A stretch of 64,000 nt of DNA from Sphyrna mokarran. Lineage: Eukaryota. This document shows, piece after piece, positions 1,001 through 60,122 of this stretch (its first letter is position 1; each line of letters begins with the position of its first letter). The stretch covers positions 19,778,001 through 19,842,000 of the forward strand of contig JAGIQG010000031.1 of NCBI GenBank assembly GCA_024679065.1, written 5' to 3'. The notes beneath the pieces were generated by a model. It ran no database searches, had not been told where the DNA came from, and worked only from the letters and a program-made list of their open reading frames with translations. The position numbers and the translations under genes were made by a program.

Positions 1001-1009
1001 ATGCCCTGG

Positions 1010-8046: not shown

Positions 8047-8092
8047 ATGTTGTTGCCTCGTCTGATCTTCATTCTGCTGCAGCTTTTAAACT
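8047..8092 (+). CDS. Signal-peptide exon MLLPRLIFILLQLLN
   Basis: aagATGt start, hydrophobic run, strong donor T|gtaagt in phase 1; conserved in the inverted copy. Confidence 0.7.
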
Positions 8093-17000: not shown

Positions 17001-20000
17001 GATTCGGAATCGCTGACATTTTTGCAGGCAAAGTACACCTCGCACTTTGAATGAAAATGGTAAAATAGGGCCCTGTGAGTTCCAAGTGGAAAGTTGCTTG
17101 CATTAAACCTTTTTTTTTAAAGTCAACCGTCACCAGTCAAAGTCAGAGCATTTAATTTAAATCATGTTTCCTTCCCTTCATGAAATCAGGATCGAGTTGC
17201 TCCAATTGGAATTCACCAGTGAACGTTGGAGCATAGGCATTAGGAACAGAAATTGGTGATTGAACCCTTGGAACATGCTCCGCCATTCAATCAGATCATG
17301 GCTGATCTTTCCCTGCTCTCAAATCCACCTCCCGACCTGAATCCCATATCTACTTAGCTTTTTTATCAGAGTGGTTACTGAGATTGCCATGGACACTGCA
17401 CCGCCTTTAAAATGTACACATATTTCAATGTCATTGGACAGACTGAGCCGCTAACACAGGGCCGATCACTGGAAGATTACAGAAGGAACAGAAAATCGCC
17501 CACAAGGACAGAAAGTACTCAGGTGTCATTCTGTATATGTGATATCAATTTGATTATATTTTGGCACATTGTCAATGTTGGATTGCTGGAGAAATCGTAT
17601 TTGTGCTTTCTTAATATGGGGAATGTGAAACTGATGTCATCATGTATCCCGATGTCATTTCTTCCATAAAGTATCGGAAATTCATACCCCACATTTGTTA
17701 CATTTGGATTTTTCTTTCATTTCCTGTCTCAGTGGATTATAACTCTGAACTTCTTATTTCAGACAGACCTGGGGACAATCAGACTATCCAACCAGGTAAA
17801 GTCTCTTTATGTTACTCGCTATCCCTGTTATTGCCCCACCTCGTTAAATATGAAGGCTGGTCCACAATCTCAATATCTTTTTGATCATAGATTAACCTGC
17901 TGTCTGGTTATCAATGGTGGGGATTGTGTTGCGTTCACTCTTCTGAATGAGCTTTCATTTCAATTCAGAGTGCTGTTGTCGCCAAACAAGTAGATAAAAA
18001 AAGAGACTCGTTGAAGAACAGAATGTGAAGGATCAGCTTCACTCACACTGCTCCCAATTTCCACCTCATCAATCAGATTGAAGTCGAAATCACACGAATA
18101 TTTTAAACAAGGGCACTCAGAAAAAAATGCCTCTGCTTGTGAGGGAGTCCAGAACTAGGGGTTAGAGTTTGACGATAAGCCTTTTAGGACTGTCCCGGAT
18201 TATCTCTGGGACTTGCGGGAAGCCGCTATTCTGCGTCGGCAAATGGGCTGCGGGACGGCGATCTCCGCACCGGGCAAGGCTCACTCTGGAGAAGGATCTG
18301 GATCAATTCTCCCAAAGAGTATTGAGTGCGACGAGCATGAGGCCTCCTTGTGGGATTGTGCTTGGTTTGACTATGCTCCAAATTCAGACTCCAAAGCTGC
18401 CGGTGTCATCTGCTCAGGTAAAAATCCTACTGCAGTCTCTCATTTCCAATCAGTTTCCCTGAAAAGGCGGAGGTAAAATAACCTTGGATTATTATTAATT
18501 GGGGACGGAACGGTGGCGCAGCCTTTAACACTGTTGTCTCACAGAGCCAGAGACCAGTGTTTGATTCCCGGCTTGGGCCACTGCCCGAGCGGAGACATTT
18601 TTATAGTAAAACAGGCCAGATGAGTAAACTGTTCAATAAATACACACAATCCTCTGGAAATTCCTGGAATCTGACCCATAGTTTTCTTCTGGTCACCATC
18701 ATTCGCAATCTCCTCCCCTTCTTTACTCGATTTAATATTCACTCCGGGTGTTCCCCTCCCCTTCGTTACCAGGTTTAATATTCACTCTGTTTTTTTTGGA
18801 GCGGGTGTGGCGTTTGTGTTTGGACACAGTCTAATGTTCTCATTGATTCCTCTGTCCGGTGAACGGGATGGGAATGTGCGGTGGGAAACTGCGGGTTTAA
18901 TCCACTGTAACGCCTGACATTATTTCTGACATTTTACAGAGGAGCGGATGCTGAGGCTGGTGAATGGGAGCAGTCGGTGCTCTGGGAGAGTGGAGGTTCA
19001 CTACAAGGGTCAGTGGTGGACTGTCCCGGATTATCTGTGGGACTTGCGGGAAGCCGCTGTTGTGTGTCGGCATCTGGGCTGCGGGACGGCGATCTCCGCA
19101 CCGGACAACGTTCACTTTGGAGAAGGATCTGGATCAATTCTACCAAAGAGTATTGGGTGCGGCTGGTATGAGACCACCTTGTGGGATTGTGCTTGGGTTG
19201 ATTATACTCCAAATTCAGACTCCAAAGCTGCCGGTGTCATCTGCTCAGGTAAAAATCCTACTGCAGTCTCTCATTTCCCGTCAGTTTCCTGAAAAGGCGG
19301 AGGTAAAATAATCATGGATTATTATTAATTGGGGACGGGACTGTGGTGTAGCCTTTAACACTGCTGTCTCACAGAGCCACGGACCAGTGTTTGATTCCTG
19401 GCTTCGTGCCGAGAAATTTTAAAGTAAAACAGGCCAGATGAGTAAACTGTTTAATAAATACACACAATCCTCTGGAAATTCCTGGAATCTGACCCATAGT
19501 TTTCTTCTGGTCACCATCATTCGCAATCTCCTCCCCTTCTTTACTCCATTTAATATTCACTCTTTTTTGGAGCGGGTGTGGCGTTTGTGTTTGGACACAG
19601 TCTAATGTTCTCATTGATTCCTCTGTCCGGTGAACGGGATGGGAATGTGCGGTGGGACACTGCGGGTTTAATCCTCTGAAACGCCTGACATTATTTCTGA
19701 CATTTTACAGAGGAGCGGATGCTGAGGCTGGTGAATGGGAGCAGTCTGTGCTCTGGGAGAGTGGAGGTTCACTACAAGGGTCAGTGGTGGACTGTCCCGG
19801 ATTATCTGTGGGACTTGCGGGAAGCCGTTGTTGTGTGTCGGCATCTGGGCTGCGGGCCAGCGATCTCCGCACCGGGCAAGACTCACTTTGGAGAAGGATC
19901 TGGATTAATTCTACCAAAGAGTATTGAGTGCGGTGGGCATGAGGCCTCCTTGTGGGATTGTGCTTGGTTTGATTATTCTCCAAATTCAGACTCCAAAACT

Positions 20001-23000
20001 GCCGGTGTCATCTGCTCAGGTAAAAATCCTACTGCAGTGTCTCATTTCCTGCCAGTTTCCTGAAAAGGCGGAGATAAAATAATCATGGATTATTATTAAT
20101 TGGGGACGGAACGGTGGTGTACCCTTTAACACTGCTGTCTCACAGCGCCAGGGACCAGTGTTTGATTCCCGGCTTGGGCCACTGTCCGAGCGGAGACATT
20201 TTTATAGTAAAACAGTCCAGATGAGTAAACTGTTTAATAAATACACACAATCCTCTGGAAATTCCTGGAATCTGACCCATAGTTTTCTTCTGGTCACCAT
20301 CATTCGCAATCTCCTCCCCTTCTTTACCAGGTTTAATATTCACTCTTTTTTTTGGAGCGGGTGTGGGGGATATGTTTGGACACAGTCTAATATTCTCATT
20401 GATTCCTCTGTCCAGTGAACGGGATGGGAATGTGCGGTGGGACACTGCGGGTTTAATCCACTGTAACGCCTGACATTATTTCTGACATTTTACAGAGGAG
20501 GTGACGCTGAGACTGATGAATAGGAGCAGTCCATGCGCTGGGAGAGTGGAGGTTCACTACATGGGTCAGCAGTGGACTGTAGCGGATTATCTGTGGGACT
20601 TGCGGGAAGCCGCTGTTGTGTGTCGGCATCTGGGCTGCGGGATGGCGATCTCCGCACCGGGCAAGGCTCACTTTGGAGAAGGACTTGGATCAATTCTTCC
20701 TATGAGTATTGAGTGCAGCGGGCATGAGCCCTCCTTGTGGGAATGTGCTAGGTTTGACTATACTCCAAATTCAGACTCCAAAGCTGTCGGTGTCATCTGT
20801 TCAGGTAAAAATCCTACTGCAGTCTCTCATTCACCGCCAGTTTCCTGAAAAGGCGGAGGTAAAATGATCATGGGACATTATATTGGGGCGGGACAGTTGG
20901 GTAAACTTTAGCACTGCTGCCCACAGCACCAGGGACCAGGGTTTGATTCCCGGCTTGGGCTATAGTGCGTGCACAGACATTTTTACGACAAAACAGGCCA
21001 GACGAGTAAACTGTTTAATAAATACACACAATTCCTCTGGAATTCCTGGAATCTGGCCCATAGTTTTCTTCTGGTCACCATCACAACTGACTAAGTCATT
21101 TAGCACAGTCAATACACCTATTCAATGCATCTTTAATTAATTAAGTAATTTTCCACAATTTTCTGTTTGTCAGATTTTGCTGAGTATCTTGGAAATCTGT
21201 TAAAATGTTAGTTTTAAGGTTTGTTATTGGATGTTCATTTTCTGATGCATTATTCTAGAACAGTTTTGTCTCTAGGTGAGGATATGTGGCAGCATCGACC
21301 CACGTATATTATCATTAGAGTATTCAGAAACTCAGCTAATTTTTTGAGAATCCGGAATTGAATCCTGCCTCGGCAGATGGTGGAATTTGAATTAAATACA
21401 AACAGATATATGGAATTAAGAATCTACTGGCGACCATGGAACTATTGTTGATTGTCCGGAAAACCCATCCGATTGACTAATATACCTTCCGGAAGTAAAT
21501 TTGCAGTTCTTACGTGGTCTGGCCTATTTGTGAGATCCCAGAACCACAGCAATATGGTTGGCTCTGAACTGCCCTCGAGTAAGTAACGATGGGCAATAAA
21601 TGCTGGCAAGTCAGCGACTCCCATTTCCAATGAATGAAAAAACCCACAGATTTTAAGGAGTGAAATAATGTCTCGTTGCTTCCATGTGAGTTTTCTCAGC
21701 TGTTTCACCATATGCTCACTGAGTTTTCAGAAACTGATGACTTTGTGTCTCATGAGCAGTTGATAACTTGTTCTCCATTTCTGTGCTGAAGTTAAACGCC
21801 TAAACTTTCCAAAGGAGACAGAAGTCATTTTTGTGACATTTTAATTCCAGCTCATTGTACGGATCCAGGTCACAGTGACCCAGCGGTGAGCACTGGTACC
21901 TCACAGCGCCAGGGATCTGGGTTCGATTCCCGGTTTTGGTCACTTCTGTGTCGAGTTTTCACATTCTCCCACCTCTGGGTAGGATTCCTCCACGGGTTGC
22001 AGTTTCCTCCCATAGTGCAAAAATGTGCTGGTTATTTGGATTGGCTATGCAAAATTGCTCCTTACTGTCAGAGGAGCAGCTAAGGTGAATACATGGGACT
22101 GTGGAGATAGCACCTGGATGGTATTATGATTGGTGCAGATTCGGTGAGCCAAATGGTTTCCTTCTGTACTGTAGGCTTCTAGTACAAGAGTACTTCTTAG
22201 TACAATAGTACTGTGTTGTAGAAACTAGATTTTCAAATAAAACTCAAAAGCTAAATTGGACTATTTTGATCAAAACTTTTAAAACGTATCTGACCAGATA
22301 AAGGTGGCATGGTGGCACAGTGTCTAGCATACTGCCTCACAGCAAGAGGGACCTGGGCTTGGGTCACTGCATATGTAGAATTTCCAAGCTTTCTCTGTGT
22401 CTGCGTGGGTTTCCTCCGGGTGCTCTAGTTTCTCCCACACCTGAAAGATGTACTGGTTAGGTGTATTGGCTGTCCTAAATTCTTCGTCAGTGTCCGCGAA
22501 CAGGACCGGAATGTGGCGAAGAGCGTATTTTCACAGTAACCTCATTGCAGAGTTAATTAACACCTACATGTGTCACAATAAATAAACTTTTAAAAAAAAC
22601 AACAGGCAGAGCGTCCCCTGCCTGGGATATGGTGTGATTGATGAGATGATCGAAAATCTCCTAAACGTTTTATTCGATATAAAGCACTTTATATCCTCAC
22701 CATCTATTGAAATATAATTCTCAGGCAGTGCGAAGGCCAGACTGGTGAATGGAAGCAGTACCTGTGCAGGAAGAGTCGAGCTATATTGGAGTGGAAGCTG
22801 GGCCTCACTTTGCCGAGATAACTCCTCCTGGTTGTTGAACGATGCAGAACATTTTTGTAAGCAGTTGCACTGTGGCTCTGCGGTAGCAGCGCTGCTGAAT
22901 TCTCATTTTGGAGAAGGATTGGGGCCTGTAATCGGACCGCCTGACTGTGGACACCAGCAGGATGTTGGAGTTATCTGTTCAGGTACAAACTCAAAGATTA

Positions 23001-26000
23001 CAGGAACAAATTCATCCGCAAATATGTCTGGACAAATAGAAATAGATGAGATAGGTTTTTATCTTCATAAAGAGGAAGTATTATTCAGGGAGTATTAGCA
23101 AAAGTAGTGGACGGCACAGTGTTGTACGCGTGTACACGTGGACAAGTGTCCCCGATTGTTGATACAGAGACCTTGCTGAACCTCTCTTCGTGCTCTTTCT
23201 GCTCAACGGCAATTGTGCTGCCGTAAATATCATACTGCCTTCAACTAACTGACTCAACACTGATAGGGATTGAAATTGTGATCACCCGCCAAAGGTGGAG
23301 AGAAACGCTGTAGATTGTTGTAGATGCTTTGGAATGGGGATTTTGCCCAAATTTCCAATTGAGGACGCTGGGCTGGGGAGAGGAAGGCAGTGGAGGGTAC
23401 CCTCGGTGACAGCAGATTTTCAATCACTCCAAATTATTGTAGCGAAGTGGTTTCAAAGGCTGTGTCAAGTTTTTGACTCTGTCCAGCAGAAAAACAGAAC
23501 AACGTATGTTTTCGCGACAGATTCAATTAAACTTACAAGCTGTGAAATCTGAGAAATCTGGTAGTTTCCCGTGGGAAAAGAGAGCTGAATGGGAGATTAC
23601 ATTTCAGCCTGTTGTCACAAAGAAGATAGAGACACTTGGTAAAACAGTGTTGTGTGTGTGCCTGTGTGTGCTTTAACAGAGAATTAAACATACCATGAAC
23701 CAAAGTGTTCTTGAATGTTCAAGCTGTTGTGCCTGTGGGAAAGGACATTGCGCAGAGATTCTTCCGAAGTTTACATTGTTGATGACAATTATATTCTCTG
23801 TAGGTGTAGGCTGTTTGAAAATCAGATCCTGTTCAAGGAAGAGTAGTTGAACTCCATTGAATTGAATTGATTTATTGTTATCACATAGATTGGGATAAAG
23901 TGGAAAGGATTTTTGTGCTATACAGACACAACATACCATTCATAGAGTACGTAGGAGAAAAGGAAAAGAAAGGGTGCAGAATATCGTGTTACAGTTATAT
24001 CTGGGGCGTAGAGAACGTTTACCTGAATACACGGTTGGAACTTTCAAAAGTCTGATGACAGCAGGAAAGATGCTGTTTTGGACCGTTCTAAGAAAGAAAT
24101 GTGCACAAAATGTTGCCTCTGAAATTATGATCTGTCAGCTATTTAAATTGTAATTTATAGTTGAAATGGAAAACAACTTGCCAGTAGTTTCATATTCAGG
24201 TAGTGTTGATTTTGGTATGATCGTCACAGTATAAGTTTTAAATGATGAGAGCTTCTTCAACAATTTCTTTCATGATGCTCATTTGGAAGGTTTGTTTCTC
24301 TGCAGTTGTTGGAGTCTAGCGAAAATCAGGGCTGTCCAGGATTGAGAAACGTTGACCAAAACTTTGAGAATGTTAACAATGAGATTCTGGTGGAAGAATT
24401 CAAAATGAGTGCCCCTATGATCATAATGACACAATGGGAGAACATAAAGTTCGTCGAATAAAGGACGATTTGAAATAGAATAGCAACTTGTATCAGGCCT
24501 CAGATTGGAAACTCACCGTGGGACTAGAGAGATAAGTTTGATGAGGCAAATAAATCTGCCTCAGCAGAAAAAGATGGCAAAGGAAAATATCCAGATTCTT
24601 CCCGGGCTAGTAATAAAGTGTGGAGAAGAAACTTGTTTCAAGGAACAGATCTCTTATTTTTCTCACAAATAGAGAAATATGAAGGTAGATTCTTTGAACT
24701 GGAACAACAAGTCTACAGCTTTTGGACAATCACATGGTGTTGCTCAAGTACAACGCAATCAATGCAATAGTACTGTAAAAGTAATACTAGCTTTAATATT
24801 CCTAATGGTCGTAATTGTGACTCTGTTAATTATAGTTATGCAAATAGTGTTAGGCATGATTGTGATCATAAACACTGATGTTTCTTTTGAGCTGTAAAGA
24901 AACCAACTGTGAATCAGTTTTACTTTCAGTTCAGCTATGGAGATTGTAGACATTTTTGGCATTTGTTAATATTCTCATTGTTGTCTTTGTAATTATTCAG
25001 ACCACAAAGATCTCAGACTGGTATCTGGGGATGACCGATGTTCCGGGCGGCTTGAAATACAACAGGGAGTGCAGTGGGGCACGTTGTGTGATGATTACTT
25101 CGGTTTCAGAGAAGCCAATGTGGTTTGTGAGTACCTTAGCTGTGGAGCAGCAATTGCGATACCGGGAGGATCTCACTTCGGAAAGGCAACCAGCCCATTA
25201 TGGAAAAAGAGCTACAAATGCCGGGGTAACGAGTCCAGTCTCTGGGATTGTTCTGTTTCATTCATGGAACGGTTTAGCTGCTCAGATGAAAATGCTGTCA
25301 GTGTTATCTGCTCAGGTGAGTCCTAAAAGTTTATTAACCAGAATACACCAGCTTTTGATATAACCTTTTATATTATTTGGATTTTCAGAAAACACTTAAT
25401 ACGGTGCCACATGGCAGGTTGGTTCGCAAATTAGATGTGTTTGGAATTGATATATACTGAGCAGGATGGATCGAAGTTGGCCAAGAGATTTGCAAAGGAA
25501 AATAGCCAATTGGGGCAATGATGCTGAGTTCCTTCAGAGCGACATTGATAAGTTGGCCAAATGAACAGATCGCTGGCAGACGAATTTCAATGCAGCGAAA
25601 TGTGAGCAAATATATTTTTGTAGTAGAAAGGAGGGGAGCTAAAACTAGCTTTCTGTTACAACTTTAAGAGGAGTACAGGAGCAAAGAGCTCGGGGTTCAA
25701 GTGCACAATTCCCTGAAAATGGTCAGGCAAGTTGAAAGATGAAAGAAGACTTTTCGCATCCTTGGGGTTGTTAATATAGGCATAGAATATTAAAATAAGA
25801 AAATGATGCAAAACGTGACAAATCAGAGCAAATTGGAATATTGTGTTCAGTTCTGGTGCCTTATTTAAGGAAGGAAGTTAAAGCCCTCGAAATAATGCGA
25901 AGAAAATTTACTAGAATGATATTAGGCATTTCAGATAGAAGGGAAAACTGACGAAATTTGGCGTATTCCCTTTGGAGCATTATAAAAGGTGAGGTGTCTA

Positions 26001-29000
26001 AAATATGAACTAATTTGACAGGGCAAAGAAGCATATTTTATCTCCACTAGCTGGTGTGCCAGCCACAGGATGGGGGTGGGGAGGGCGGAGGGGTGGGGTT
26101 GTAGTGGGTGGATAGACACAGTCTCAACATATTTAGCAAGAGAGTTAGGAGTGTGGTGGGGACAAACCAGTTTCCTCAGTTGTTGCGATTTGACATGTGC
26201 TGCCTTGGGGTGTGTAGAAGGCGATTCCACAGGAATCAAACAAAGGCTGGAAAAATATTTGACAGTAATTAATTTGGAGCAACCAGTGGTAGAGGGTTGG
26301 AGAATAGGAGTAACTAGGTCACTCTTTGGGAGCCTGTGGGCCGATTGCCCATTTTCTGTGTGCTACAAAATTCTATAATTCTATGACGCTATGGTTAACC
26401 TTGTCTGCGTTGCGTTTGGCTGCTAATGATTCTCATTCTATCTAGTAATGAAGCAAATCTATATATTGTGGCACATTGTTAACAAATTAATATCTGATCT
26501 TATGGTGATTTTCCCTTTCTGGCTGAATACAAAAATATCAGAATTCAGAAACAGATCGAAACTGCACAATGGGGACCATGTAACACCAGTTATGGGACAT
26601 GGATGGAGCTGACAAGAAAACGTTTTCTTGAGTCCCCAGTTTCTCTTCAATGTGCAATGGTCAGCCACCTCATTAAATGGCTGTAGTCCATGTGATTATT
26701 ATCCGTCGACAGTCTCTGCCGAGGGGAATTGATCAATTTTGATCCTTCAATGACGAACGATCAATGATGCGTTGGGATGATTTGGAATTCCTGGGAAATT
26801 GGAGATGAGTTCCCATTCTCCTCGTCCTTCTGTCAGATGCTTTCGAAGAAGTCTGAGCGAGCTGTTTCACCACATCTCACAGAGTGTATGTGTTATATCG
26901 ACACTGTGTTAGCGATAGAGTGAATGTTTAAAGAATGGCTTTCAAGTGGATTTCTTCATCCTGAGTGGAATCAAATTTACTATGGATATTGAAGATGCAT
27001 CCATTCAAACATGGGGCCTTCCATCACATCTCGGGCTTGTATCAGGGGGGTACAATTTCCAGATAAGGGGCGTAATTTCCCCCTCCCCCCAAAAAAAAAG
27101 TGCACTAATAGCCAGAATAATGGAGAAATCCACATCAGTCTCCCAGGCATATTGCACACAGGAATCATGCAGTACTCATTGAATTTAACAGAGAATGATG
27201 AGTTATGCCCTGGTAGGAAGAACGGCTCTGGACACGCTGGCGATCCCAGTATCAGAGAGCTTGCTCTCAATTTGTAATGATGGCTGATCTTACAGTGCAC
27301 TGGGGGAGCCCTCTCGCACCGCTTCCCCACCATGGACATTAAATCCCCCTTCATTGGCGGCATATTCCCCCACCCCATTCCCCAACACGGCCCACTGGCA
27401 TCAGGACATTGAGGCATTCCAGGTGGGTCCCCCAGCATGATGCTTTATATGTAGCCCATCATGACCTGCGACATGAACGCCCTCCCCAACCCCAAGTCAT
27501 GACCTACTACATGTTCCCTCTTTCGTAGAGTCTCCCCCCACAACATTATAGCCGCCCTACATAGCATCCCCCACCCCCTCTCTGTCATAGCCCATTAGCC
27601 ATTGGCACTGTCCCTGACACACTGGTGGTTCCTAGATGGTACTGCTGGGGTTGTTCAATGGCCACTGCCTGTATGCCCAGTTGCCAATGCCATTGTGCCT
27701 TTTAGACACTGCCAGTGTGCCGAGGACACTCTGTCTGATGGACAATACCGGCCATGACCTTGAGCACCCAGGTCTTCAATGGCCGTTGTGCTTCTCAGCA
27801 TCATCAATGCACCAGGTGTTTGCTAGTTAAGACAAATAGTAACTGACACCAGTGTGACCTCCCGCTGGAGAGATGGGAACACTGCAGGCCTGGGGACAAT
27901 TATATGCTGGAGAAACTAATGAGATTGAAATCAAGTGAATCTCTTGCTGCTCAGCCTTGCGCTTCTCCTTGGGCATGATCCGATTTGTGCAGGGAGAAAC
28001 GCACCGGAAAGATTGCAAACTCTGTACCACCGGACATTGAATTTTAGGCCTGCACAATATTTTTCAGGATTAGCAGTATCATTGGGGAGGTAATCGCCTT
28101 CAGTGCGTCGGCATTTTAAGATGCAGGAAATAAGATACAGTGGCTTATGTTTAATTGTCGTCTCAATATTCTTCACTTTGTAGATGAAAATTGGTTGCTA
28201 AGATTGACTGACGGAGAAAGCCGGTGTGATGGGCGAGTGGAGATTTACTACAATGGAGCCTGGGGCAGAGTGCAGGACAACCTCTGGGACCTGAGCAATG
28301 CTCACGTAGTCTGCAGACAGCTGGGCTGCGGTAACGGGATAGGCGCTTACAGTTCTTCAATGAAAGAGAATCTGACATCAGTTTGGATAACTGATATCCA
28401 GTGTGATGGAAATGAAGCGCATCTCCGGAACTGCAGCTCATTGCTATTCAATTCATCTCTCAGTGACAACACGGGCGTAGGAGTTGTGTGTTCAGGTGAA
28501 AAAAAAAAACGTTCTCTTTTCCAGAGCCAATGTCGGAAAGTTTCTAATTTGCTGGTGTTTTGGCGAATTGATCCTCGTTATTTCAGGATATTGAGAAATA
28601 TGAGTTTCAGTTTTAAGATATGTATTTATGTGAGATAATTTATTTATCAATCACAAGGAAGATTTACATCAACACGCAATGAAGTTAGTGTGAAATTCCC
28701 CGAGTCGCCACACTGCGGCGCCTGTTTGGGTCACTGTCCCCAACTGGCACAACTTTCAGACTGTGGGAGGAAAGAGGGGCACCCGGAGGAAACTCACGCA
28801 GACACGGGGAGGAGATGAAGACTCCACTTAGACAGCAACCCAAGCCGGGATTCGAACACAGGTCCCTGGCGCTTTGAGGCAGCAAAACTGGCCATGGTGC
28901 ACGTTTCTGTCCCGGTAGTGTCGGTCAGCGAGTATAAGAGGCGTTGCTCGGTTGTCCTCGCTGCCGTTCAGGCAACAGTGTTGGGAGAATGTGTTCTCTA

Positions 29001-32000
29001 CCATTGCATGATGGTGATTAGAAATGCGTTTAGACTCTAAGTGGGTGAATCAGGAATGGAATTCCCTTCCCAGGAAGCAGTGGCGGCTGGCTCATTGCAT
29101 TTGTTTAAGGATGAGCTATTCAGGTTGTTGAGAGAGACAATGGCTGTAAAGGGTTTAGGAAAGGGGATTTGGCAAGACATGAAATGGAGTTGAAACTACA
29201 ACCAGAGCAGTCATGATCTGAATGAACAGCAAAGCAGATTTCAGTGGCCGAAGGGCCAATTCACGTTCTCTCCAGATGATAACAGTTATTCAGCTTAGCG
29301 ACAGCGAGGGGCCGGAGTGTAAAGCCAAAGGACAAAGACAGACGGGAACAAGAATGGGGTTTTGAAATTTTAGAGCACTTTTAAAAAAGGCAAAAGTAAA
29401 AAAGAATTGCGTAGAAGTGCAATTGGAAAAAGAACGGAGACAACAAGGAGCAGGTGTTTATCCCTAGAAGGTGGCCATGCAAGGGTGGGGCTTGGAGTAT
29501 TAATGTATTTGAACTTGATGATACTACCAAACCGCAGGAATTGACAAAAGGGCAAATAATGTCGATCAGCGAGCACTGAGGTGTGCCCAGTGCGCCTCGC
29601 TGCCGTTCAGGCAGCAGTGTTTTGGAGTATGTGATCTATACTATCGCAAGTGTCATTGCGCAGCATGTAAACTGAAACCGTCTCGCTGAGACTGAGACTG
29701 TCTAAGCTCCATTGGGCAGAATGTAACTCGAGGCAGATATGTTTGTTTTATGTGTCGACTGATGTCCCATGTAAAAGCAGCTACACATGTAAATATACTG
29801 GAAATTATATCACTTCCAATAGGATGAATAGAATCGGGAAAAGTCAAATGGCAGCACACAATATGCCTAGCAGTCAGCACAAAAATGTGGGGACTGGAAT
29901 CCAGAAACTATGTCGTCAGATGTTGGAATATGTAAAACATTCATGCACTGTGTCTTCATAGTAGAAGTAGAGGCTTTGACATATTGACTCATTAAGATAT
30001 CCACAGGCGCGATATAAAGGCAGATTTCCGTTCTCCTTCAGAGTATTGAATGGGAAGAAAGTGATGAGCTGAAAATCTATCAGAAATATAACTCGTCTGT
30101 ATTACTGTCCAACAGATCACATGCAGATAAGACTGTCTGGTGGTGATAGCCCGTGCTCTGGCCGTGTGGAGATTTATTACAATCAGAGTTGGGGCTCAGT
30201 TTGTGATGATTCCTGGGATTTCATTGACGCTAACGTGGTTTGCAAACAGCTGGGCTGCGGAACTGCATTGGAGATGTCACTTCCTGCTTCTTGTGAATCG
30301 GGCTCAGGCCCAATTTGGTTGGATGATCTAAAGTGTTCCGGGAACGAGTCATTTCTCTGGGAATGCCCCTCAGCATCATGGGGTAACCACGACTGTAGCC
30401 ATAAGGAAGATGTGAGAATTATGTGCTCAGGTAAGGATGCTGTCACTGTGCGGAATTCCTGAGGCTTCACAGGGATGATGTTACACTGAATTACACAGTA
30501 CCCAGGGCACAGAATCCGGCCTTTCCACTCAATTACTCCGTACGGCATTTGTACTGAACACGAGAATCATCCTGCATTACTCCTTTCAACTCTATCTGCT
30601 TATGCTGACTTTCCTTTCCGCCTGTACTCATCCAGTTTCATCTTGAAGACATTGATACTCCCACTCAGCGAGATGATCTGAGTTCCACCATCTCACCAGT
30701 CTCTAGGAAAAGGAACGCATATTCTACATACCTGATTTCATATTTGTCATCCCAAGAATAGACACCACCATTTTCTAAGTCATTAAAGCATCTATATCAC
30801 CAGATCTCTTGGTCCCTTTCGAAAATCCACATAGATTTCAGGTGCATCTTTCTGCCACTCCCGAAATGAATGCACCAAATTTCTTAAGTATGACAATCCC
30901 ATTAGAAATCTGCGTTGATCTTTGGATCTAGTTGTTTTCTGTTACATTTTGGAAATAATTATTGCCAATTAGTGGGCATAACCAGGACACTGTGTACGCC
31001 CAGTTGGCTTGTGATAGAGAGCAATGTCAACAGCGCAGGGTCGTTCCCCGTAACATCTGAGTTTATTCGTGAATCTCGCCCTTACCCTGAGGTGTGGAGA
31101 TCCGCAGTTTAAACAAGCCGTGGTCATCCCGGATTATGGTAAATTTACCATTTTTTGTGAAGATGTAAATCTGGATATTTCTTACTTCTTTGACAGAGCA
31201 CAAGGAATTAAGACTGGTGAACGGAGATCACCGCTGCGAGGGGAGAGTGGAAATCTTCTACAATGGCAGCTGGGGCACAGTGTGTTCGGACATACTTCGG
31301 ACAGAGGATGCTGAAGTGATCTGTAAACAGTTGGAGTGTGGCAGCTTCCAATCAATGTTCTATGATGCTGAGAAGTTCGGAGAGGGATCTGGACCTATCC
31401 GACTCAGTGAGCTGGGGTGTACTTCATTCGAAGCGTTCATTTGGCAGTGTGGGGCAGACTCGCAGGGTGTCAAAGACTGCAGCCACTATGATGATGCGGG
31501 TGTCGTTTGTTCAGGTAACGCACACCAAACCTCTCAATGCGCTGCTATCATTGCAAACATTGCTATCCAATGCACTCAGCGAATGTCTGTTCTTAACAGG
31601 GACGTCGGGGACGAAGGAGCAGCCCCACTGTTCAATGGAAGGCAGTCAAGAACCAGGTAAATGCTGCTATATCGAATACATGTTGCGTTCTCGGTTCCGG
31701 CTAGATCAATAAGAATAATTTATTCTTTTGGACGGATTTAGGTCAGCGTTTGCGCCTGGTGGGAGGAGACACTAACTGCTCTGGGACAGTGGAGATATTG
31801 TACAATAACCGTTGGGGCACGATTTGTGATGATTCCTGGAATCTGGCCGACGCTAATGTTGTGTGCAGGCAGTTGGCTTGCGGCTCCGGTCTGTTGGCAC
31901 AAGGAGGGTCCCCTTTGCCCCGGGGTAACGGTGGTGATATCTGGCTGGGTGAGATCAAATGCACCGGATTTGAATCGTTTCTATCCGACTGTCCCTCCGC

Positions 32001-35000
32001 ATCAGCAGCCCAGTCTGACTGTGACCACAAGGAAGATGCTAGGGTGATTTGTTCCGGTAAGGACTGCTCAGTACGTGGACATGACCAATTTCCAAAAATT
32101 AGGAAATTCATTTGGCTTTTAAAGTAAATCACCAACATTTGAAGTTATTAATGCCTGTCCAATATACCCCACAGGACTGGATTTGTCACCGAATTCTTCT
32201 CAGAACACACCTTCTGGTAATTGGTCTATATAACCTTTCTAGAATTGGTGTTGATGTTACAATTCTTCCCAATGATGCTGCTTTCATTTACAATGATCCA
32301 CTTTTGCTAATTTCTGAATAAGGGTTGATTTCCCATTGATGGCAACATTGAAAGTGTGCAAGGGGACACTATGTCTCTGTTAAATGTTTCTGTATCTTAT
32401 GACGAGCAGATGCCAATCCCATTCCCCTGGTCGTGTGCGTGACCCTCGGAGTGCTGGCAATCCTGGAACTGATCACACTGCTGGCAGTAATATTGAGAAA
32501 GTTCAAAAGAAAAGGTGAGCCTCCAATGTCCAAATAGCATTGAAATATTGATATTGATTTATATCCTGGGGCTGTTGTTTATCACATCTTTCCAAAGAAC
32601 GTCACTTGAAGTAACCCGAAAAAAAACTCTGAACTTCGTTTTGCAATTCTCATCCGCATTGGTAACTGTGAAACTAATTAGAGAATCCACATAGTGCGCA
32701 AGGAGCAATTCTTTTCACTATATACATGTGACAATAATAAATCAAATCAAAATCTTTCACTACCCAGTTTATCTCAGACTCCAGAAAGACTCACTCGTTT
32801 AAATAATGGAAATGAAAGTTTAACGGAACTCTTTCTTAAATATTCTTTTATGTGTTATGTAGCTGTTTTTCTCTCTCATTATCATGAGCCTCATGTCTAG
32901 TCGCGAACACTTTGCACCAGATTCTGTGCAATATTCTTCAGTGACTTGCAGCATTCTCCAGTAATTCTACATCCAAACACAAATATTTCACACATAATCC
33001 AACAACCAATGCACCGTTGATCTACAGGTCACTTTTCCCTTGGAAATCATGGCCTGCTCAGTACCACCTCCTAACTGATGAGACCACCGCAGAGGTCAGT
33101 CAAATTTCTGCCTGGGTCCAATTCAGTTGAATTCCCCACGTGGCCCGTCACGAATGATTTGCTGGGACTCATTTTGTCTGACACTCTGCAGAGGGTCCTA
33201 CCCATACTCCCCCATCCCTCCCCAAACACTTGTTTTGTCTTTTCCGACTTTCTTGCAAATGGGTTCTGTTCTGCTGGAGGTGAACGAACGCTTATTACAA
33301 ACATAAAAATGCACATTCACGGATGCACCGATTCCAGAGCATATCCACATGCAAACTAACTGGCTTTATCTTGGGAATCTCATCACATCTGTGGTTTGTT
33401 TATCAGCCTCGGGCATTTTACTGTTAACCGCCCGTGCAATGCAACAACATGCTGATCACCTTTCCTTTCCTTTAACAGATACTGTCGCTCACCACTTGGC
33501 TTCGCCTTCTGCGTCCGACCAAGGAATTTATGCAGAGATTGAGAATATTGAATCTGACCGCAATTCACGGGGTTCAGGTTTGTATTCTACTTCTCTTTTA
33601 CTCAGTCTTCACAGAATAAGTCTGGCTTCTACGTAAATTCAAATGGTCACATCATTAAATGGGGAAATGGACAGTCCAGTGACTTTCCAGTGTGAAAAAG
33701 CCCCATCATGTGTTTTTTTCTGCCTGTGAAATGATTCATTGGCCTGGGAAGACTCTATATTTGTCAGAGAATGTGTGTTCGAAAAAGTGTGTATATCTCC
33801 ATTTCCAGATATTTCTAGTATCTGAGTTAGTGAACAACAATCTCATCAGTGGATAGCTGTCATGTGTAAACCGCCCATTTCTAATCCAGTATGGAAAAAG
33901 TGCAACAGGCGAGGATTCACGAATGGATCTTGCAGAGAGAATGGACCAGAAGGGATAGAAGAGAAAATCGGGGAGCAACTAGGCAATTTCGAACTTAATG
34001 TAACACACTTAATGATAATAACTCAGAACAGATTGGAGAAGTGCTGAATTTCAGGAACTGATAATGAACTTGAAAATATTTAATGGACCCCTTTCACAAA
34101 CAATGATGCATCTCAACAATAGCTAATAATGCAACAGGTTAAAACAAATGAGAAGCCATGGGTCCAATGAGAACCATGGAGGGAAAAGGGGAAAGTAAAA
34201 GCAGGCAATGCACAATGAAGCAAATAGATGGAAGAGTAGAGGTGGCGGTGGGAGTGGGGTGGGGGGGCGGGGGTGAGGTGGAGCGTGGGGGGCAGTGAGT
34301 AACATGCTTGGATTGTACAGAGATGTTAAGCAATTGATAATTCAATGAGATGACATTTTTAAGGAGCATCTCATAAAATAGCTTAATGTTCTATTCGAAT
34401 GAGAAAAACGATGCTGGAAAGAAATATGATCAATTATTGAAGAATATGATAAAATCATAAAATCCCCGCCATTCAATAATAGGATGGCTGATCTGATTGT
34501 GGCTCTGCCTTTCCCATGCCTGTCACACAACACATTAATTCATTATAGATCCAAAATCTATCTTAAACAGCTAGACAACAGTCAATGAGCCCCTAACCAC
34601 TCTCTGTCAAAGAAAGTTACAAAAACAGAAGATCTTTAGTGAGAGAAGAATCCTCCAAATTTCGAGCTGAAGTGAAGACTCAATAATTTAGAACTGTCCC
34701 ATGAATAAAGAACAAGCAACAAAAGTGAAATAATCAAAGTATTGAAGAATTGTTTCATTATTAATACTCCATAAAATTGTTGGACATAACATTGGAATTT
34801 AGATTGATCTAATTACATGAAATTAATACAAATTCAAATTGTAAACGAATAAAGCAGAGAAGGTACACCTCCTGGTGTGGAAGGAATTCAAACATGTATT
34901 TTAAATAAATCAAAAGAGATACCAAAGGCTCAATGAGAGGTATTTGATAACTGATTGGAAATTAGTAAATTGACCGTGTTCTCGCATATAATTGTTTTTA

Positions 35001-38000
35001 AAACTACATAGAAAAAAAGGAACTGTGGCCTACCCAGCTTAACATTCATGAATCCAGGCGATGCGGGTGGTTAGCGGGAATTAATCGAACAAATGCTGAA
35101 AGAGGAAGAAAAAAACAATGAATGAATAGAAACAAACAAATAATAATACGTAGTCAACCTTCAAAGTACAATGGCTTGCTTAACCAACATCATCAAAATC
35201 CCTGCAGAACTAGCAGGGTAGTATAAATAATGGTGAAAGTGCAATTTATCATAATTTCTGAAAGGTCCTTGATAAGGCACCACAGATTAGGCATCTGGAG
35301 AATGAGAGTTAATTTACAGCACCTGTGGCTTAGGTTGTAGCATTCTAATTTCAATGTCCAAAATTTGGGTTGCAAGTCCTTCTCCAGAAATAAAACATGA
35401 AAACTAAGGCTGTCATTACAATGCAGTGCCAAGGACTTATTCCACAGCCAGATGTTCCAACTTGGAACTAAGCGTGAAAGTGTGAGGATAACGGGTAAAC
35501 CTTTTAGGATTAAGGTGAGGAGAAATTTCTTCATTCACAAATTCATGACCACAAAACGTAGTTCAAGCCAAAACATTGGGTGATTGCAAGAAGAAATTAG
35601 ATGCAGCTCTTGGGGTTAAACAATAGATATGGGGCAATGCGGGATCAGGATATTGAATTTGATGATCATCCATCATCCAAGTGAACGGCAGAGCAGGCTT
35701 GGATAGCCAAGTGTTCTATTCTTGCTTCTATTTTCTATGTTTGGGTGAGACATTAAAGCGAGGACCTTTATGCCTTCTCGTGTGAACAGAAACATCCCAT
35801 GATGCCATCTCACAGGAATGCAGTGAGAAATTCACTGTGTCCTGGGTAATATCACAAAAGCAGGCAACTTGATAATTATCATATTTATTTGTGAGAACTT
35901 ACTGTGTGCAAACAGCTCATGGTTTCTACATTGCAACATCGACTACATCTCAAAAGTACTTAGTTAGGAAATCTCTTCCAGTAATCGTGAGATATATGGA
36001 GTTAGAAGGCAAGAAATCACATGACTAACTAATGGCAAGAAAGGTGAAAGCAGAGAGAAGGAGAAAGATTGGTTGCTTGGAATGGCAGAAAAAGTAAAAT
36101 GATATGTTGCAACAACTAGTCCATAATCATAATTGACTTGAGTCAAAAATGAGATTTTCTAAATTTGTCAAAACCACCAAATTGTGATGGTGATGAGGAG
36201 GGATTTGGAAGAGTTTAGTGAATACTTTAGAGTCCTTTAGAGAAGGACAGAAACAAATTACTAGAAAACATTCATAGAAATGTAGAATTGAAAATTATTG
36301 ATAACTGTAGCAGCTATGAAGGCATATATATATCATGAAGTAAATTAAGGAGATGATATATTATTTGGAATGTAGAATCTTTGCAAGGAACAATACAATT
36401 GTTGGATGTAGATTATTAAAGCTGTTCAAAACCACTGGCAACTATATCTCGAGAATGGGAATTGGAAAGTAAATAACTTGTGCCAAATGTTTTTTTTTAT
36501 ATAGAGATCGCATGTGGTGGAGGCTTTATCTTTCGTTTCAGCATATCATCAAATGGACATAGAAATGCAAGAGATTGTCCAAAATATTACCTGAGTCATG
36601 GGGTTATAATTAGAAGGATTAAATAGGCTGGATCAGTTTCCCGAGAAAAGTGATTCAAGACAAAGGCACTTTCAGTTTCTGTAACTGCTGTTGCCTGATT
36701 GTAGTTTCTGGGAGCTGGGATGGTGATTCTGGGTCAGAGATTATCGTTTACCGTCTGCAAAGTAACTGGATATAGCATACTGCGTTTAAGTTTAATTTTC
36801 ACAAGCACGCTTACTTTCACATTGCAATGAAGTTACTGTGATAATCGTCTGATCGCTACATGCTGGCGCCTGATTGGATACCCTGAGGGAGAATTTGGCA
36901 TGGCAAGTCAATCTAACCAGCACATCTTCGGACTCTGGGGGGGAAAACGGAGGATATCCATGCAAACACGGGGAGAACATGCAAACTCAACACAGCGACC
37001 AAGCTAGGAATCAAACCCGGATTTATGGGGTTATGAGGCAGCAGTGCTAATAACTGTGCCACCATGCACCCCACTGCTCTAATATGCGAGATATTACCAA
37101 TAATAATGAGTTAGAATAGTGATTATTATATCTGTCGAGGACAGGAGCAACATTTATTTTTGCCTTGATTGGGGTGATTTGGGGATTACAGTTTCCTTCT
37201 CTTTGAGCCATTTGTCCGCTTTGTGAATCCCAAAATCATGGCAGGTAATAAATTCTAAGGCATTGTCACAGGCACAGTTAAGGTATTATGCGCTTGTCTC
37301 CTATATTCCAAACAAGCTCTCCAATAACTACGCATTTTTGTCTTTAACAGTTTCCATTAACTCCCTCAATCAGATGGAATATTACACCAATCGTAGTTTG
37401 AGTGACACAGAATCTGGATCAGAAAATCCTGAAGGGAGCTTCTCCGGAATTCAATGTGGGTACAATTTCACTTGCTGCCTTCGTGCTTTTTGAACTTCAT
37501 CCACTTTGGTATAAAACCCACGTCATTCACCACCCTGACTTGGAAAAATAACATCGCTCCTTCACAATCCTGAGACTCTGTCCTTAAAAGCACTGTGGGT
37601 GTACCTACATTGTGTGGGCTCAGCATTTCAATAAGGCGGCTCACCACCACCTTATCAAGGGCAATTGGAGATGGAAAATATACACCAGTAAATGGCCCAG
37701 ACAGCGACTCTCAGATTCCAAGAAAGAATTTTATAAACTTACTTACAAAAAACCAAAATAGAAACTATGAAATAACTCGAGCAAGGGTCCATAGTATTTC
37801 AGAGTAGACTTACCTTCAAAAAGAATGGAAATACTTCTGATTTGAAAGTGAGTAATATCGATAATAGTCGTTGGTACAAAGCAATGAAAATTCCATCTGC
37901 TGTGTCTTCTCGCAGAACTTTCTTTACAGACAGTGAAATGGGTCTAGTTCGAATGGGGAAGTGGAGGCAGGGGGTGGGGTGAGGTTGAATGTGATTTCGA

Positions 38001-41000
38001 AATGAGATTAACCTAACCCAATATGACATGGTCCATTTGTTCCCTATCCCCTGACTTCCACAGTACGCCCTACAGAACCCGAGTAGATTGTTGCATGATA
38101 ATATAATCTTTATAAAAAGTGTTAGAGTTTGGTGTTAGTGAAAGTTCCTATTTCCTCGCAGGTCCAGTTCCAAGTGATTATGACTATGTTGAGACTGAAC
38201 CTGTTGACACTCAGGACGGTCATATATCGCTGGGCAGTGTTCCTGAGGATCACTTCACATTGAGAGATGCTGGCGGTGATCTCTGTACACTCGGTGAGTC
38301 GAACCCCTGACATTCCCACAGCCTTACCATTCTTCTATACACGGGACTGTTTGAATTCGATTCCAATCCGCGGAAAATGTTGTTACTACAGTAAATCTAA
38401 ATGCAACAGCAAAGCTATCCATTTACTCTCTACAAATTGGCATTGCCAATGGTCCGTAGCATTAGAGGATAGTGTTTTTTGCAAAATATTTGATTTACTA
38501 TTGTCACATGTATTGGAGTGCAATGAAAAGTATTGTTTCTTACGTGCTATACAGACAAAACATACCGTTCATAGATTACATATAGGAGAAAGAAAGGAAA
38601 AAATGCAGAACACAACGTAGCTATTTGAGATAGAGTGTCGAGAAAAATCGGTTTCACGTGTGGAAGGTTCTTTCAAAAGTCTGATGGCAGCTATCAAGAA
38701 GATGCTCTTACGTTGGCTGGAACGTGTTCCTGATGAAGAGAACATGTCCAGCGTGCTTGGGGTCCTTGAATATGCTGGTTGCTTTCCCGAAGCAGCGGGA
38801 AGTGTAGATGGAGTCAATGGAACGGAGACTAGTTTGCGTGATGGACTGGGCTGTATTCACAACCCATTATAGTTTTCTGCAGTTTTTTTCAGAACAGGAG
38901 CCATACCAAGCTGTTCAATGAAACACTGGGGACACATACTTCAAAAATAAAATCTACAATCACAAGAACTTCCCCCTCAGGTGGTTGATCAACATTGTTG
39001 AACTCACACAGAGTCCTGAAGGATGATGAGCCTCTTTGACTCTTTATGTCAGAAGCTCATGGGTGTCTTCAACTGATCAGCTGCCCCAGCTATTTTCCTC
39101 TCTTCCAGAGACCATTTATTCAAACGTCCTCCAAAGTTACCACTTTTTTGAGTCTCTGACTTGTCTAATGTTCTTGTTTCTCCCATATTTACCCACACAC
39201 TCTCTTTGAACTGAACTGAATCTTGTCAATGAGAACCACCTTTTAGTCCCACGACATCATTGCTATTAAAACCTTAATGACCCAATTATCCTTCCTCCTC
39301 TCAATGCCGTCTGATATTGCAAACAGTTTCTCCTCCCCTTCTAATTTATTTGCTAATCCTTTAAATCCAAAGTTGAAATATTTCATTACCTAAATTTGAG
39401 GTTAAGATGTTGCAGGATTGTCCCCAGTGTTTCATTGAACAGCTTGCTATGGCTCCTGTTCTGAGCAAAACTGCAGTATTGAATTGCCAGTGGCTGCCGT
39501 AACGGCTGAGTTCTGGAGGTGGAATCAGTGTTCATATGGAGGAGAGAAGCTTTCTTACTGCAGTTCTGCTGTATGACAGTTTTAGCTGGCTACTGAGTTA
39601 CATTACAACAGACCAGTTGCTGTGCTTGGTAACTGTCTGGGCTAAAAGATGGTTTGAGATGACCCTCTAAAAAGGCAACGTCCAAAGTTGTGCATATGCG
39701 GTTGATTGGCTATTGTAAATTGGCCCTTCGTGTCATGGGGTGGGGGTGGGGATGCTCGCAGGTTAAATAACTGGTGGTAGGGGAATAGGACCTGAGTGGG
39801 ATTGTTGTCAATGTAGGGTCGATGGGCCAAATGGCCATTCTCTGCACTGTGGGGACTCTATGATGACTAGATTCCTTCACTGTGACTGAATTAACAGACT
39901 GCCTGCCTGTTCAATAGCCACAACTAGATAAAGAACAAAAATCAAACCTTCTGTCCAATTCAATACTGAGCTGAGTGTAGACCTGAAAAACAAATATTTA
40001 TGTTCTACTTACTGACTGCATCTCTCTCCCTGATAACTTTCTGAGCCCGTGCTCTTTGATTGCAACGTTTGGTGTTATACACTGGACCAAGGGATAATCT
40101 TTCCTCAACTGCACCATTGCCCGATTCCACTCTAACCTCAGCTCAATTTGCTTTGAAACCTTCATCCTTGCCTCTGGAACCTGACAAGCCGATTGCTTTT
40201 GGTTAACCAGAAGTGCGTTAGAACATAGTTCGCACCCTCAACCTAGTTCTCACCTTCAACCTAAGGTTATCAAAGCTCTCCTGCCAATACTACTACTCTC
40301 TCCAACTCCTGCTCACCTATCATTGCTATGTTTTCTAACCTACATTGGATGCCACTATTCATTTTAAAATCCACATTCTTCCTTTCATGTCTCACCAACA
40401 CTCATCCTACTTCCTATAATTTTCTCCAGCCCTGCAGTGTTTCTCTGATTCTTGCTTGTTGAACAGGCCTGATTGTAATCGCTATGTTAGTGCTGGCTGC
40501 GAATTCAGTTTTCATTCTTAAAGTTACAAATCCCATGCTCAGAACGGGCAAACCGAAATGCATTTCTTGCTTGCTCCAAGAACCAAATTCGAAATCCAAT
40601 TGAATCCAATTCAAGGTCCCCACAAGGGAGAATAACAAGATCCAAGCTGGCAAGATGAGGCATTTGACCCCATCTTGGGCCGGACGCTTGATCTTAGCCA
40701 AAACATTTCTTTGACTCGCCATCCCTCTTCCCAGTTATAAATCAAATATTGCTTCAAGATAATCCCATAAAAGCTTGAAATACTGAATTATGTTTGCGGT
40801 GCAGTCGAAATATAAGATAATGTTATTGCCTCAATCCCATCGTTAATCCATTATTTGTTTTTCCCCATAGAATACAGTTCTCATCCCAGTTTACCATTGC
40901 CTCCCATGCCTGGAAATGATGAGGATGTTCACCCTGACACGCTCACAGCTCCGGAGTTTCCGCTGCCAGGGAGCAATTACTCTGTAATAACATCTGCATC

Positions 41001-45755: not shown

Positions 45756-46806
45756 ATATCTAGCAGGAAAAATGTCTTGTGAAAATTCCGGTGCACAGCC
45801 TCGACATTCTAAATGCACAATGCAACGGGACTGTTTGGTTTCAGAAGGCAACAGTGAAAGGGGCACTGGAAGAATATAATTTGCTGATTAGACCAGTTTT
45901 TTCCTGGATACATTGCTTTGGAACATCATATCGTAATCTCACCGTTCATTCATGGGCTCTTGGCGCCCTCGTGTGGCAAAATTCTGAAATAACCGTGCAG
46001 GTGCAGATGCACAACATGTCCAGCACCGAAAACAACCTTTGAATGCTGCTGATCCATGCTTCGCACTGGCTTCCTCCTCCTCATTTAACTCTGACGTCTT
46101 CTCCTTATATTCGTCTCTCTCTCTAATTTTCCTTTACATGCATCAATATTTGCTTCCATTACTCTTTGCAGAAAATAAGTCTGTCTTGCAATGGATTGAT
46201 CAGTGGCAATCTTACACTGACGGGCCCGAATTTCGTATTCCATCCGCACCCTCAAGAGGAAACATCTCCTACATATACCCTTCCATAATCTTTTTGAAAA
46301 ACATCTCTATCAGGTCACCTTTCCTTTCTGTAGGACACACCAACAGAAAATACAATGAAACCATTCCAGAAAGTATTGTGGAAAGAACTTGCAATGCAGA
46401 GAGAGTTATAATACTCAATGCCAAACTCAGTGTCTAAAAGACTCACGTAATTTTACAATAAGGCGGAAGAATACTTATTACCAGGTAGCAGTTATACTAA
46501 TACTAAACTAAACCTTCCTATCTTAAAAGGGAGGAAATCGGAGCACCTGGAAGATATGGATCGATTCCAGGCATTTTCCAGTAGGATTGTGTGTGTTTAT
46601 TAAACGTTTACTCATCTGGCCTGTTTTACTTTAAAATTTCTCGGCACGAGCCAGGAAATCAACCTGTCCTTGGGCTCTGACACGACAGCATGTTAAAAAA
46701 GGCTACACCACAGTCACCGTCCCCAATTAATAATAATCCATGATTATTTTACCTCCGCCTTTTCATGAAACTGACGGGAAATGAGAGACTGCAGTAGGAT
46801 TTTTAC

Positions 46807-60076: not shown

Positions 60077-60122
60077 AGTTTAAAAGCTGCAGCAGAATGA
60101 AGATCAGACGAGGCAACAACAT
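60077..60122 (-). CDS. Signal-peptide exon of the inverted copy
   Basis: Identical MLLPRLIFILLQLLN with gtaagt donor. Confidence 0.6.

What the first reader, a model, noticed from the sequence alone, without database searches (positions are those of the whole stretch)
18940..20804. Young tandem SRCR array with a strong excess of amino-acid-changing substitutions
Manual codon comparison: domain 1 versus 2 differ at 18 nt, 16 non-synonymous and 2 synonymous (15 aa). Domain 1 versus the inverted copy differ at 8 nt, 7 non-synonymous. No stop arises and all 6 Cys are kept. Changes cluster in AP(DNV/GKT/GKA)H and SI(GCGWYETT/ECGGHEAS). Inference: diversifying selection on membrane-distal ligand-binding domains, analogous to the variable a1 domain of WC1 but achieved by intragenic exon amplification.
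Basis: partly seen in the sequence, partly recalled or inferred. Interest (0 to 1): 0.78.

Follow-up and report, generated by a model that had tools for sequence, protein, structure and literature searches.

The report
Shark WC1-like receptor, reshuffled tip domains
Three repeated outer domains of a shark immune-receptor gene differ no more than neutral drift and sequence swapping predict, but the gene belongs to a large WC1-like family whose other members show strong selection on the ligand-binding surface.

Summary
The counts are exact (16N/2S; 7N/1S; no stop; six Cys), but the excess is not real. Neutrality predicts 13.6 of 18 (p=0.14). Across all 14 full-length copies, omega is 1.05, and variant density is equal at N, S and intron sites (0.40/0.39/0.43). 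Site-model signals are borderline, and 7 of 35 no-positive-selection simulations with gene conversion reach them. The exons are the outer domains of an intact predicted 9-SRCR, transmembrane, tyrosine-tail gene of the CD163c-alpha/WC1 type in a cartilaginous fish. The array predates four whole-gene duplications, is reshuffled by conversion, and has a constrained core. One hint survives: clustered changes at codons 70-79 of first-position domains (nominal p 0.006). The stronger result lies elsewhere in this genome. A sister family of about 65 genes shows clear diversifying selection in the same N-terminal domain type (27 exons; 2dL=187, omega2=5.8; control domain none). Its 13 selected sites include 5 of 6 positions that bind ligand-bridging cations in DMBT1. 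The window's copies are not enriched for change at those sites.

The parts
8047..8092 (+). predicted signal-peptide exon (46 nt, phase 1)
   Evidence: hydrophobic ATG exon with GT donor, 6 copies in the cluster; splicing inferred, no RNA
17763..17795 (+). predicted 33-nt short exon
   Evidence: AG/GT, in frame, 6 copies
18187..18417 (+). U0, truncated SRCR pseudo-exon (first 78 nt lost with upstream intron)
   Evidence: junction shared by 5 copies; two stops in one copy, third Cys lost in this copy
18940..19248 (+). U1, 6-Cys SRCR exon, predicted outermost domain
19711..20019 (+). U2, 6-Cys SRCR exon
20496..20804 (+). U3, 6-Cys SRCR exon
22725..22982 (+). S4, short SRCR exon lacking the C5-C6 segment; same form in sawshark, Heptranchias, Stegostoma
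25001..25315 (+). S5, 8-Cys SRCR exon (b/c clade)
28184..28495 (+). S6, 6-Cys SRCR exon (n-like, lacks C2/C7)
30116..30430 (+). S7, SRCR exon (d-like)
31197..31514 (+). S8, SRCR exon (e-like)
31742..32056 (+). S9, SRCR exon (d'-like)
32410..32514 (+). transmembrane exon
33479..33577 (+). cytoplasmic exon 1 (IYAEI motif)
37351..37455 (+). cytoplasmic exon 2
38162..38293 (+). cytoplasmic exon 3 (DYDYV motif)
40871..40987 (+). last coding exon with stop
46555..63999 (-). inverted duplicate of the gene's 5' part (leader, short exon, U0, U1), broken off in the intron after U1

Best explanation
The array encodes the outer domains of an intact type I membrane scavenger receptor of the CD163c-alpha/WC1/SCART kind. 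Shown from DNA: a single-U form (gene B), an amplification to four units, a deletion that disabled unit 0, whole-gene duplications, and exchange of tracts between units and genes. Purifying selection holds the cysteines and core, while the other positions change at about the neutral rate, so the mean omega is near 1. The 16:2 count is one high draw among six pairs. Inferred, not shown: the receptor is expressed on leukocytes, binds microbial or host ligands through these domains, gains avidity or breadth from having three of them, and signals through tail tyrosines. The family-wide diversification of the ligand face acts in the sister clusters; this subfamily has largely fixed those positions except codons 69-70.
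For: Omega 1.05-1.06, not different from 1 (p 0.75-0.80). Distinct variants per site: N 89.5/225.9, S 31.5/80.1, intron 95/219. Recombination signal p 0.0005 and visible mosaics. 7 of 35 null simulations reach the observed LRT of 5.75. No stop or Cys loss among 121 variants, about 1e-5 under neutrality. N variants depleted in the conserved third of columns (ratio 0.58, p 0.04; rho 0.29, p 0.003). No enrichment at 12 independently defined hot sites (0.356 vs 0.402, p 0.63; 1 of 15 U1/U2 differences, 1.8 expected). The higher divergence of U than of S4-S9 between genes E and A extends over flanking non-coding DNA (4.7-7.4% vs 0-2.1%). Gene model open with canonical splice sites in all copies examined; domain tree.
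Against: A mean omega of 1 with a constrained core implies values above 1 somewhere: the variable third gives 1.34 (p 0.15). M8 vs M8a stays at p 0.015-0.06 on all trees. Codons 70-79 of position-1 domains hold 9.5 N changes (nominal p 0.006; 3 of 18 scans at or below 0.05). S4-S9 give a lower ratio (0.57, p 0.006 below 1), although the U vs S contrast is not significant (p 0.11). The null simulations use segment trees fitted to the data and may overstate conversion. One genome only, no alleles.
Confidence: 0.6

Rival explanations
1. Diversifying selection acts on a subset of U codons (mainly 69-79 in the outermost domain), masked by the constrained core and too weak to show with 14 close copies.
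For: M8 vs M8a p 0.015-0.06; position-1 cluster at codons 70-79, nominal p 0.005-0.006; codon 69, a ligand-site position, is the most variable codon (4.5 N); a 96%-conserved Gly is Trp in 5 of 14 copies; strong selection on the same domain type in the sister family.
Against: Null simulations reach the signal in 7 of 35 runs; position-1 N/S ratio 1.30, p 0.29; no enrichment at the family's hot sites; the cluster p is about 0.1 after 18 tests, and conversion tracts also cluster changes.
Confidence: 0.3
2. The U exons are redundant copies in neutral decay.
For: Mean omega 1.05; N density equals intron density; no transcript evidence was obtained.
Against: No stop or Cys loss in 121 variants and no indel in 14 exons, while flanking introns carry indels and U0 copies carry stops and a Cys loss; core depleted of N changes; confident SRCR model (pLDDT 89.5, TM 0.89).
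Confidence: 0.05
3. Some paralogues are assembly duplicates or haplotype mixes, so the mosaics and copy counts are partly artificial.
For: C1 and D1 differ at 1 of 306 nt; a 100-N gap lies between genes C and D; identical family copies sit on small contigs; no reads could be laid.
Against: Most copies differ by 3.6-17% and share derived junctions; the window's three units differ by 6-11%; dropping genes does not change the ratios (0.96-1.07 for 9-13 copies).
Confidence: 0.05

Closest known systems
CD163c-alpha / SCART1 (m-l-b-c-n-d-e-d') and the hybrid chicken CD163 genes (a ... c-n-d-e-d'), PMC2906472
   Same: Membrane-proximal cassette with a 6-Cys domain lacking C2/C7 fourth from the membrane; TM; tyrosine tail; multigene cluster.
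   Different: Short S4 domain in place of one b/c domain; 1-4 six-Cys N-terminal domains; tail motif YAEI instead of Y-(Q/E)-(D/C/E)-(I/L); no mammalian CD163c-alpha sequence was available for the tree.
Ruminant WC1 (SCARI) gamma-delta T-cell co-receptors, PMC2681482, PMC5949365
   Same: One exon per SRCR; multigene array; outermost domain most variable; 4 cytoplasmic exons. A muntjac protein that I read as WC1 (identification recalled; the source calls it hypothetical) has nine tandem 6-Cys N-terminal domains.
   Different: Shark N-terminal domains do not group with the muntjac domains (unresolved), so the C2/C7 loss may be convergent; no repeated five-domain cassette; expression unknown. PMC2681482 reports no domain-exon rearrangement among bovine WC1 genes, whereas these copies are mosaics.
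DMBT1/SALSA
   Same: Near-identical tandem SRCR exons in one gene; same fold (TM 0.89); database relatives are mostly labelled DMBT1-like.
   Different: TM and tyrosine tail; no CUB/ZP exon seen in the gene model; acidic cation site largely lost in U (1 of 6 residues kept); rat DMBT1-labelled domains form a separate clade.
Predicted elasmobranch proteins P0107 (sawshark), P0211 (Heptranchias), P0155 (Stegostoma), P0172 (skate), P0188 (Pristis)
   Same: Same domain order, including the short S4; 55-74% identity per domain to P0107 and P0211.
   Different: One, two or three to four N-terminal domains, amplified independently; the window's U sits on a long stem (0.34).

Membership tests
Group B SRCR superfamily | 100-110 aa SRCR domains with 6-8 Cys, one exon each | tested here: met
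   Pfam PF00530 above cut-off for all 9 domains and U0; exon bounds; fold match. S4 is shorter (86 codons).
CD163 family (CD163c-alpha/WC1/SCART branch) | proximal cassette b-c-(n)-d-e-d' | tested here: met
   S6 with turtle and teleost 6-Cys domains 99/96, S8 with e-position domains 100/99, S5 in the b/c clade 100/98, S9 95/50 and S7 80/71 (weak). Letters assigned by position and Cys pattern from PMC2906472 text; S4 is shark-specific.
CD163 family (CD163c-alpha/WC1/SCART branch) | domain n lacks C2 and C7 | tested here: met
   S6 has six Cys, without C2/C7; PMC2906472 passage on bovine CD163c-alpha domain 5
CD163 family (CD163c-alpha/WC1/SCART branch) | type I TM plus multi-exon tyrosine tail | tested here: met
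   TM exon and 4 cytoplasmic exons, open in all copies; predicted only
CD163 family (CD163c-alpha/WC1/SCART branch) | tail motif Y-(Q/E)-(D/C/E)-(I/L) | tested here: inconclusive
   window subfamily has YAEI, one mismatch; sister genes and the Stegostoma protein have YEEI at the same place; motif from PMC2906472 section 10
WC1 proper | N-terminal domain in the WC1 'a' clade | tested here: inconclusive
   shark N-terminal domains form their own group (94/83); muntjac 6-Cys domains group with turtle domains (93/61); backbone open; no named WC1 sequence was returned
WC1 proper | a-[b-c-d-e-d]-[b-c-d-e-d'] organisation | tested here: not met
   one cassette, and it contains an n-like domain
WC1 proper | expression on gamma-delta T cells, TCR co-signalling, pathogen binding | not testable with these tools
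   needs cells and assays
WC1-like variable N-terminal domain | outermost domain under diversifying selection | tested here: inconclusive
   not shown for the window's subfamily; met for the sister family
DMBT1/SALSA | secreted, with CUB and ZP domains (recalled), and an intact dual cation site | tested here: not met
   TM and tail follow S9; U has D,Y,K,S,P,K at the six site positions of PMC7043408

The most novel reading that the evidence does not exclude
Cartilaginous fish carry a WC1-like germline receptor repertoire of some 60 or more genes in which the canonical calcium-bridging acidic site of the outermost SRCR domain has become a hypervariable surface for direct ligand recognition, used as a co-receptor on T cells. 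The window's subfamily is a divergent branch that diversifies by in-gene amplification and by conversion, with the truncated U0 exon as a silent donor (the N56-V57 tract of U1 matches U0 in three other genes).
Probability: 0.35. Interest if true: 0.72.

Novelty: new member of a known kind. Interest (0 to 1): 0.42.

Why it matters
As stated, the finding is ordinary: a 16:2 count among close paralogues is within neutral expectation. The context matters more. It places the CD163c-alpha/WC1 cassette in cartilaginous fish, as a family several times larger than the 13-16 bovine WC1 genes. Positive selection there falls on the SRCR face whose role in ligand binding was shown by mutagenesis in DMBT1. 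That gives testable residues and a candidate marker or co-receptor for shark lymphocyte subsets. Paper searches listed no study of such a family in sharks, but the library lacks most subscription journals and only listings were seen.

Tried and rejected
Sequencing runs: none was listed for RNA, so no reads were laid; this is no evidence on expression. Single-sequence structure prediction failed (pLDDT 33); the alignment-based model worked but gives no coordinates, so burial was judged by column conservation and secondary structure only. A candidate 40-nt exon at 17483-17522 was rejected because it would give a stop directly after the leader exon. U0 as a coding exon was rejected: its cryptic acceptor gives 230 nt and a frameshift (my reading). 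Three protein searches returned no protein named WC1, SCART or CD163c-alpha, so orthology to domain 'a' stays open. The Sawyer-type tract test gave 7 of 171 pairs at p<=0.01, uncorrected, so single tracts are suggestive only; the U0-to-U1 tract rests on two shared bases. Earlier scan notes: nothing found. Searches for papers on multiple a-domains in sheep or goat WC1 gave nothing usable. Supplements and figures were not seen; the WC1 VR1/VR2 positions (PMC3511184 Fig. 1, PMC5949365 Fig. S1) could not be compared with the shark sites.
Full report
OBSERVATION. The window holds three 309-nt, phase-1 SRCR exons at 18940-19248 (U1), 19711-20019 (U2) and 20496-20804 (U3). A truncated fourth unit (U0, 18187-18417) lies before them, and an inverted copy of U0-U1 lies at 46807-47870. 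About three quarters of sites are non-synonymous, so neutrality predicts 13.6 of 18 (p 0.14; 0.067 with kappa 4) and 6.0 of 8 (p 0.38). None of the 6 pairs is significant, and pairs with U3 give omega 0.97-1.31 at kappa 1. The introns between units differ by 4.6-5.8%, the exons U1/U2 by 5.9%.

THE GENE. Exon-by-exon reading gives an open frame of 1,105 codons from U1 to the stop: nine SRCR exons, a TM exon and four cytoplasmic exons with tyrosine motifs. A 46-nt hydrophobic leader exon lies at 8047-8092 and a 33-nt exon at 17763-17795. Splicing is inferred; there is no RNA evidence. The same domain order, including a short S4 that lacks the C5-C6 segment, occurs in predicted sawshark, Heptranchias, Stegostoma and Pristis proteins. 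Identity per domain to the first two is 55-74%, so the source is a cartilaginous fish (inference). In a tree of 116 domains, S6 joins turtle and teleost 6-Cys domains (99/96), S8 the e-position domains (100/99) and S5 the b/c clade (100/98); S7 and S9 are weakly placed; DMBT1/SSC-type mammalian domains stand apart. This matches the CD163c-alpha cassette and the hybrid chicken genes of PMC2906472 (passages and sections 9 and 10 read). The tail motif is YAEI, one residue off that paper's consensus; sister genes have YEEI. The shark N-terminal domains do not group with the muntjac 6-Cys domains that I take for WC1 (identification recalled), so I file the gene under the CD163c-alpha/WC1 branch, not under WC1.

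HISTORY OF THE ARRAY. In 440 kb around the window there are four genes with U0-U3 (A, C, D and the window's E; C ends after S5, before an assembly gap), one gene with a single U (B), the inverted 5' fragment (F) and two 3' fragments. U0 arose by a deletion joining upstream intron to codon 27; the junction is the same in the three copies printed and B shows the undeleted state. So amplification preceded the gene duplications. The units are mosaics: informative sites are far more compatible with their neighbours than expected (p 0.0005).

SELECTION IN THE ARRAY (14 of 14 full-length U exons; the 5 U0 copies left out). One-ratio omega is 1.05-1.06, not different from 1. A tree-free count of distinct variants gives N 89.5/225.9, S 31.5/80.1 and intron 95/219; subsets of 9-13 copies give ratios of 0.96-1.07 at kappa 2.15. 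Site models on one tree are borderline: M2a vs M1a p 0.053-0.059, M8 vs M7 0.027-0.029, M8 vs M8a 0.015-0.018 (my own codon-model code). With separate trees per segment they give 0.07 and 0.17, and 0.02 and 0.06. In simulations without positive selection but with segment trees, 7 of 35 reach the observed statistic. The exons are not decaying: no stop or Cys change among 121 variants (about 1e-5 under neutrality), while one U0 copy has two stops and two have lost a Cys. N changes avoid columns conserved in 1,251 aligned SRCR domains (ratio 0.58, p 0.04) and reach 1.34 (p 0.15) in the variable third. S4-S9 give 0.57; the U vs S contrast is not significant (p 0.11), and the greater U divergence between genes E and A is shared by flanking non-coding DNA. 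Scans over all 14 copies (p 0.19-0.35) and over the window's own copies (p 0.57-0.96) show nothing.

THE SISTER FAMILY. The genome holds many related genes on contigs C894 (1-5.3 Mb), C1005 and C738. A TM-exon search gave 71 of 71 candidates at E<=10, 5 of them in this cluster. An S7-type search gave 67 full matches at 76% or more outside the cluster among 120 listed. An N-terminal-type search gave about 90 at 71% or more among 150 scored. Some are identical copies on small contigs. Four regions read in full show one to three 6-Cys N-terminal exons before the same cassette. I tested 27 of 40 extracted N-terminal exons (dropped: 5 with insertions, 5 partial, 1 with a stop, 2 duplicates) and 31 of 37 extracted S7-type exons (6 partial S9 matches dropped). 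Both sets are the best-scoring hits to one query, not gene-matched, and the control tree is shorter (2.0 vs 5.2). N-terminal exons: M2a vs M1a 2dL 187, omega2 5.8 at 14% of sites; control: 0.67, omega 0.43. With segment trees 2dL is 105, and 0 of 41 null simulations exceed 26.4. The 13 sites with posterior above 0.9 form three patches. By motif, spacing and alignment to a rat DMBT1-labelled domain, they include 5 of the 6 positions that bind the surface cations in DMBT1 SRCR8 (D1020, D1058, D1059, N1081, E1086; not D1019); hypergeometric p 9e-5. The buried structural site (D1023, D1026) is not selected (residues from passages of PMC7043408). In the window's subfamily, the 12 alignable hot sites are no more variable than the rest (0.356 vs 0.402), only 1 of the 15 U1/U2 differences falls on them, and codons 30, 31, 90 and 95 are invariant; codons 69-70 are the exception.

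HOW IT LIKELY WORKS. Shown: gene anatomy, constraint on the fold, conversion among units, and selection on the ligand face in the sister family. Inferred from WC1 and DMBT1 biology (passages of PMC2681482, PMC3511184, PMC5949365, PMC12235456): a leukocyte pattern-recognition co-receptor whose outer domains bind ligands and whose tail tyrosines signal. Loss of the acidic cation residues suggests direct rather than calcium-bridged contact. A CD163-like transcript marks a cod T-cell subset (passages of PMC9276791), which makes T-cell expression plausible but shows nothing for sharks.

VERDICT. Counts right; excess not supported for this array (diversifying selection here about 0.3). The gene is a new member of a known kind. 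In-gene amplification of the outer domain recurs in skate, Narcine, Heptranchias and muntjac proteins. The worthwhile lead is the large sister family. Paper searches (listings only) showed no study of it, which does not show that none exists.

Noticed in passing
G000 C894:1.0-5.3 Mb, C1005:0.06-4.6 Mb, C738:56.9-58.2 Mb (L069-L148): About 65 genes of the same receptor type with about 90 six-Cys N-terminal SRCR exons under strong positive selection at the canonical ligand face; some copies carry stops.
   Followed up: partly
window 4172-19498 and 46555-63999: Large inverted duplication (94-98% identical), with 1.6 kb near-identical around U0; the arm continues past the window end.
   Followed up: partly
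window 22725-22982: S4 lacks the whole C5-C6 segment; the same short domain is in sawshark, Heptranchias, Stegostoma and Pristis proteins, so it is old and kept.
   Followed up: partly
window 1-25000 vs 25000-46500: Gene E is a chimera: its 3' half is 0-2% from gene A, its far 5' part under 1% from gene D.
   Followed up: partly
window 28-1011 and 50083-50775: Two related open frames (70% alike in DNA) that read like LINE reverse-transcriptase ends (recalled; no Pfam hit for the second); the second sits in a 1-kb insert of the inverted arm.
   Followed up: no
window 16440-16540: CpG-rich stretch inside the predicted first intron, conserved in gene B; promoter-like by eye, untested.
   Followed up: no
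P0206: Muntjac 'hypothetical protein' with nine tandem six-Cys SRCR domains before three cassette domains; reads as WC1 with an amplified outer domain (recalled).
   Followed up: partly
G000:C894:19729255-19729354: 100-N assembly gap between genes C and D; gene C ends there after S5.
   Followed up: no
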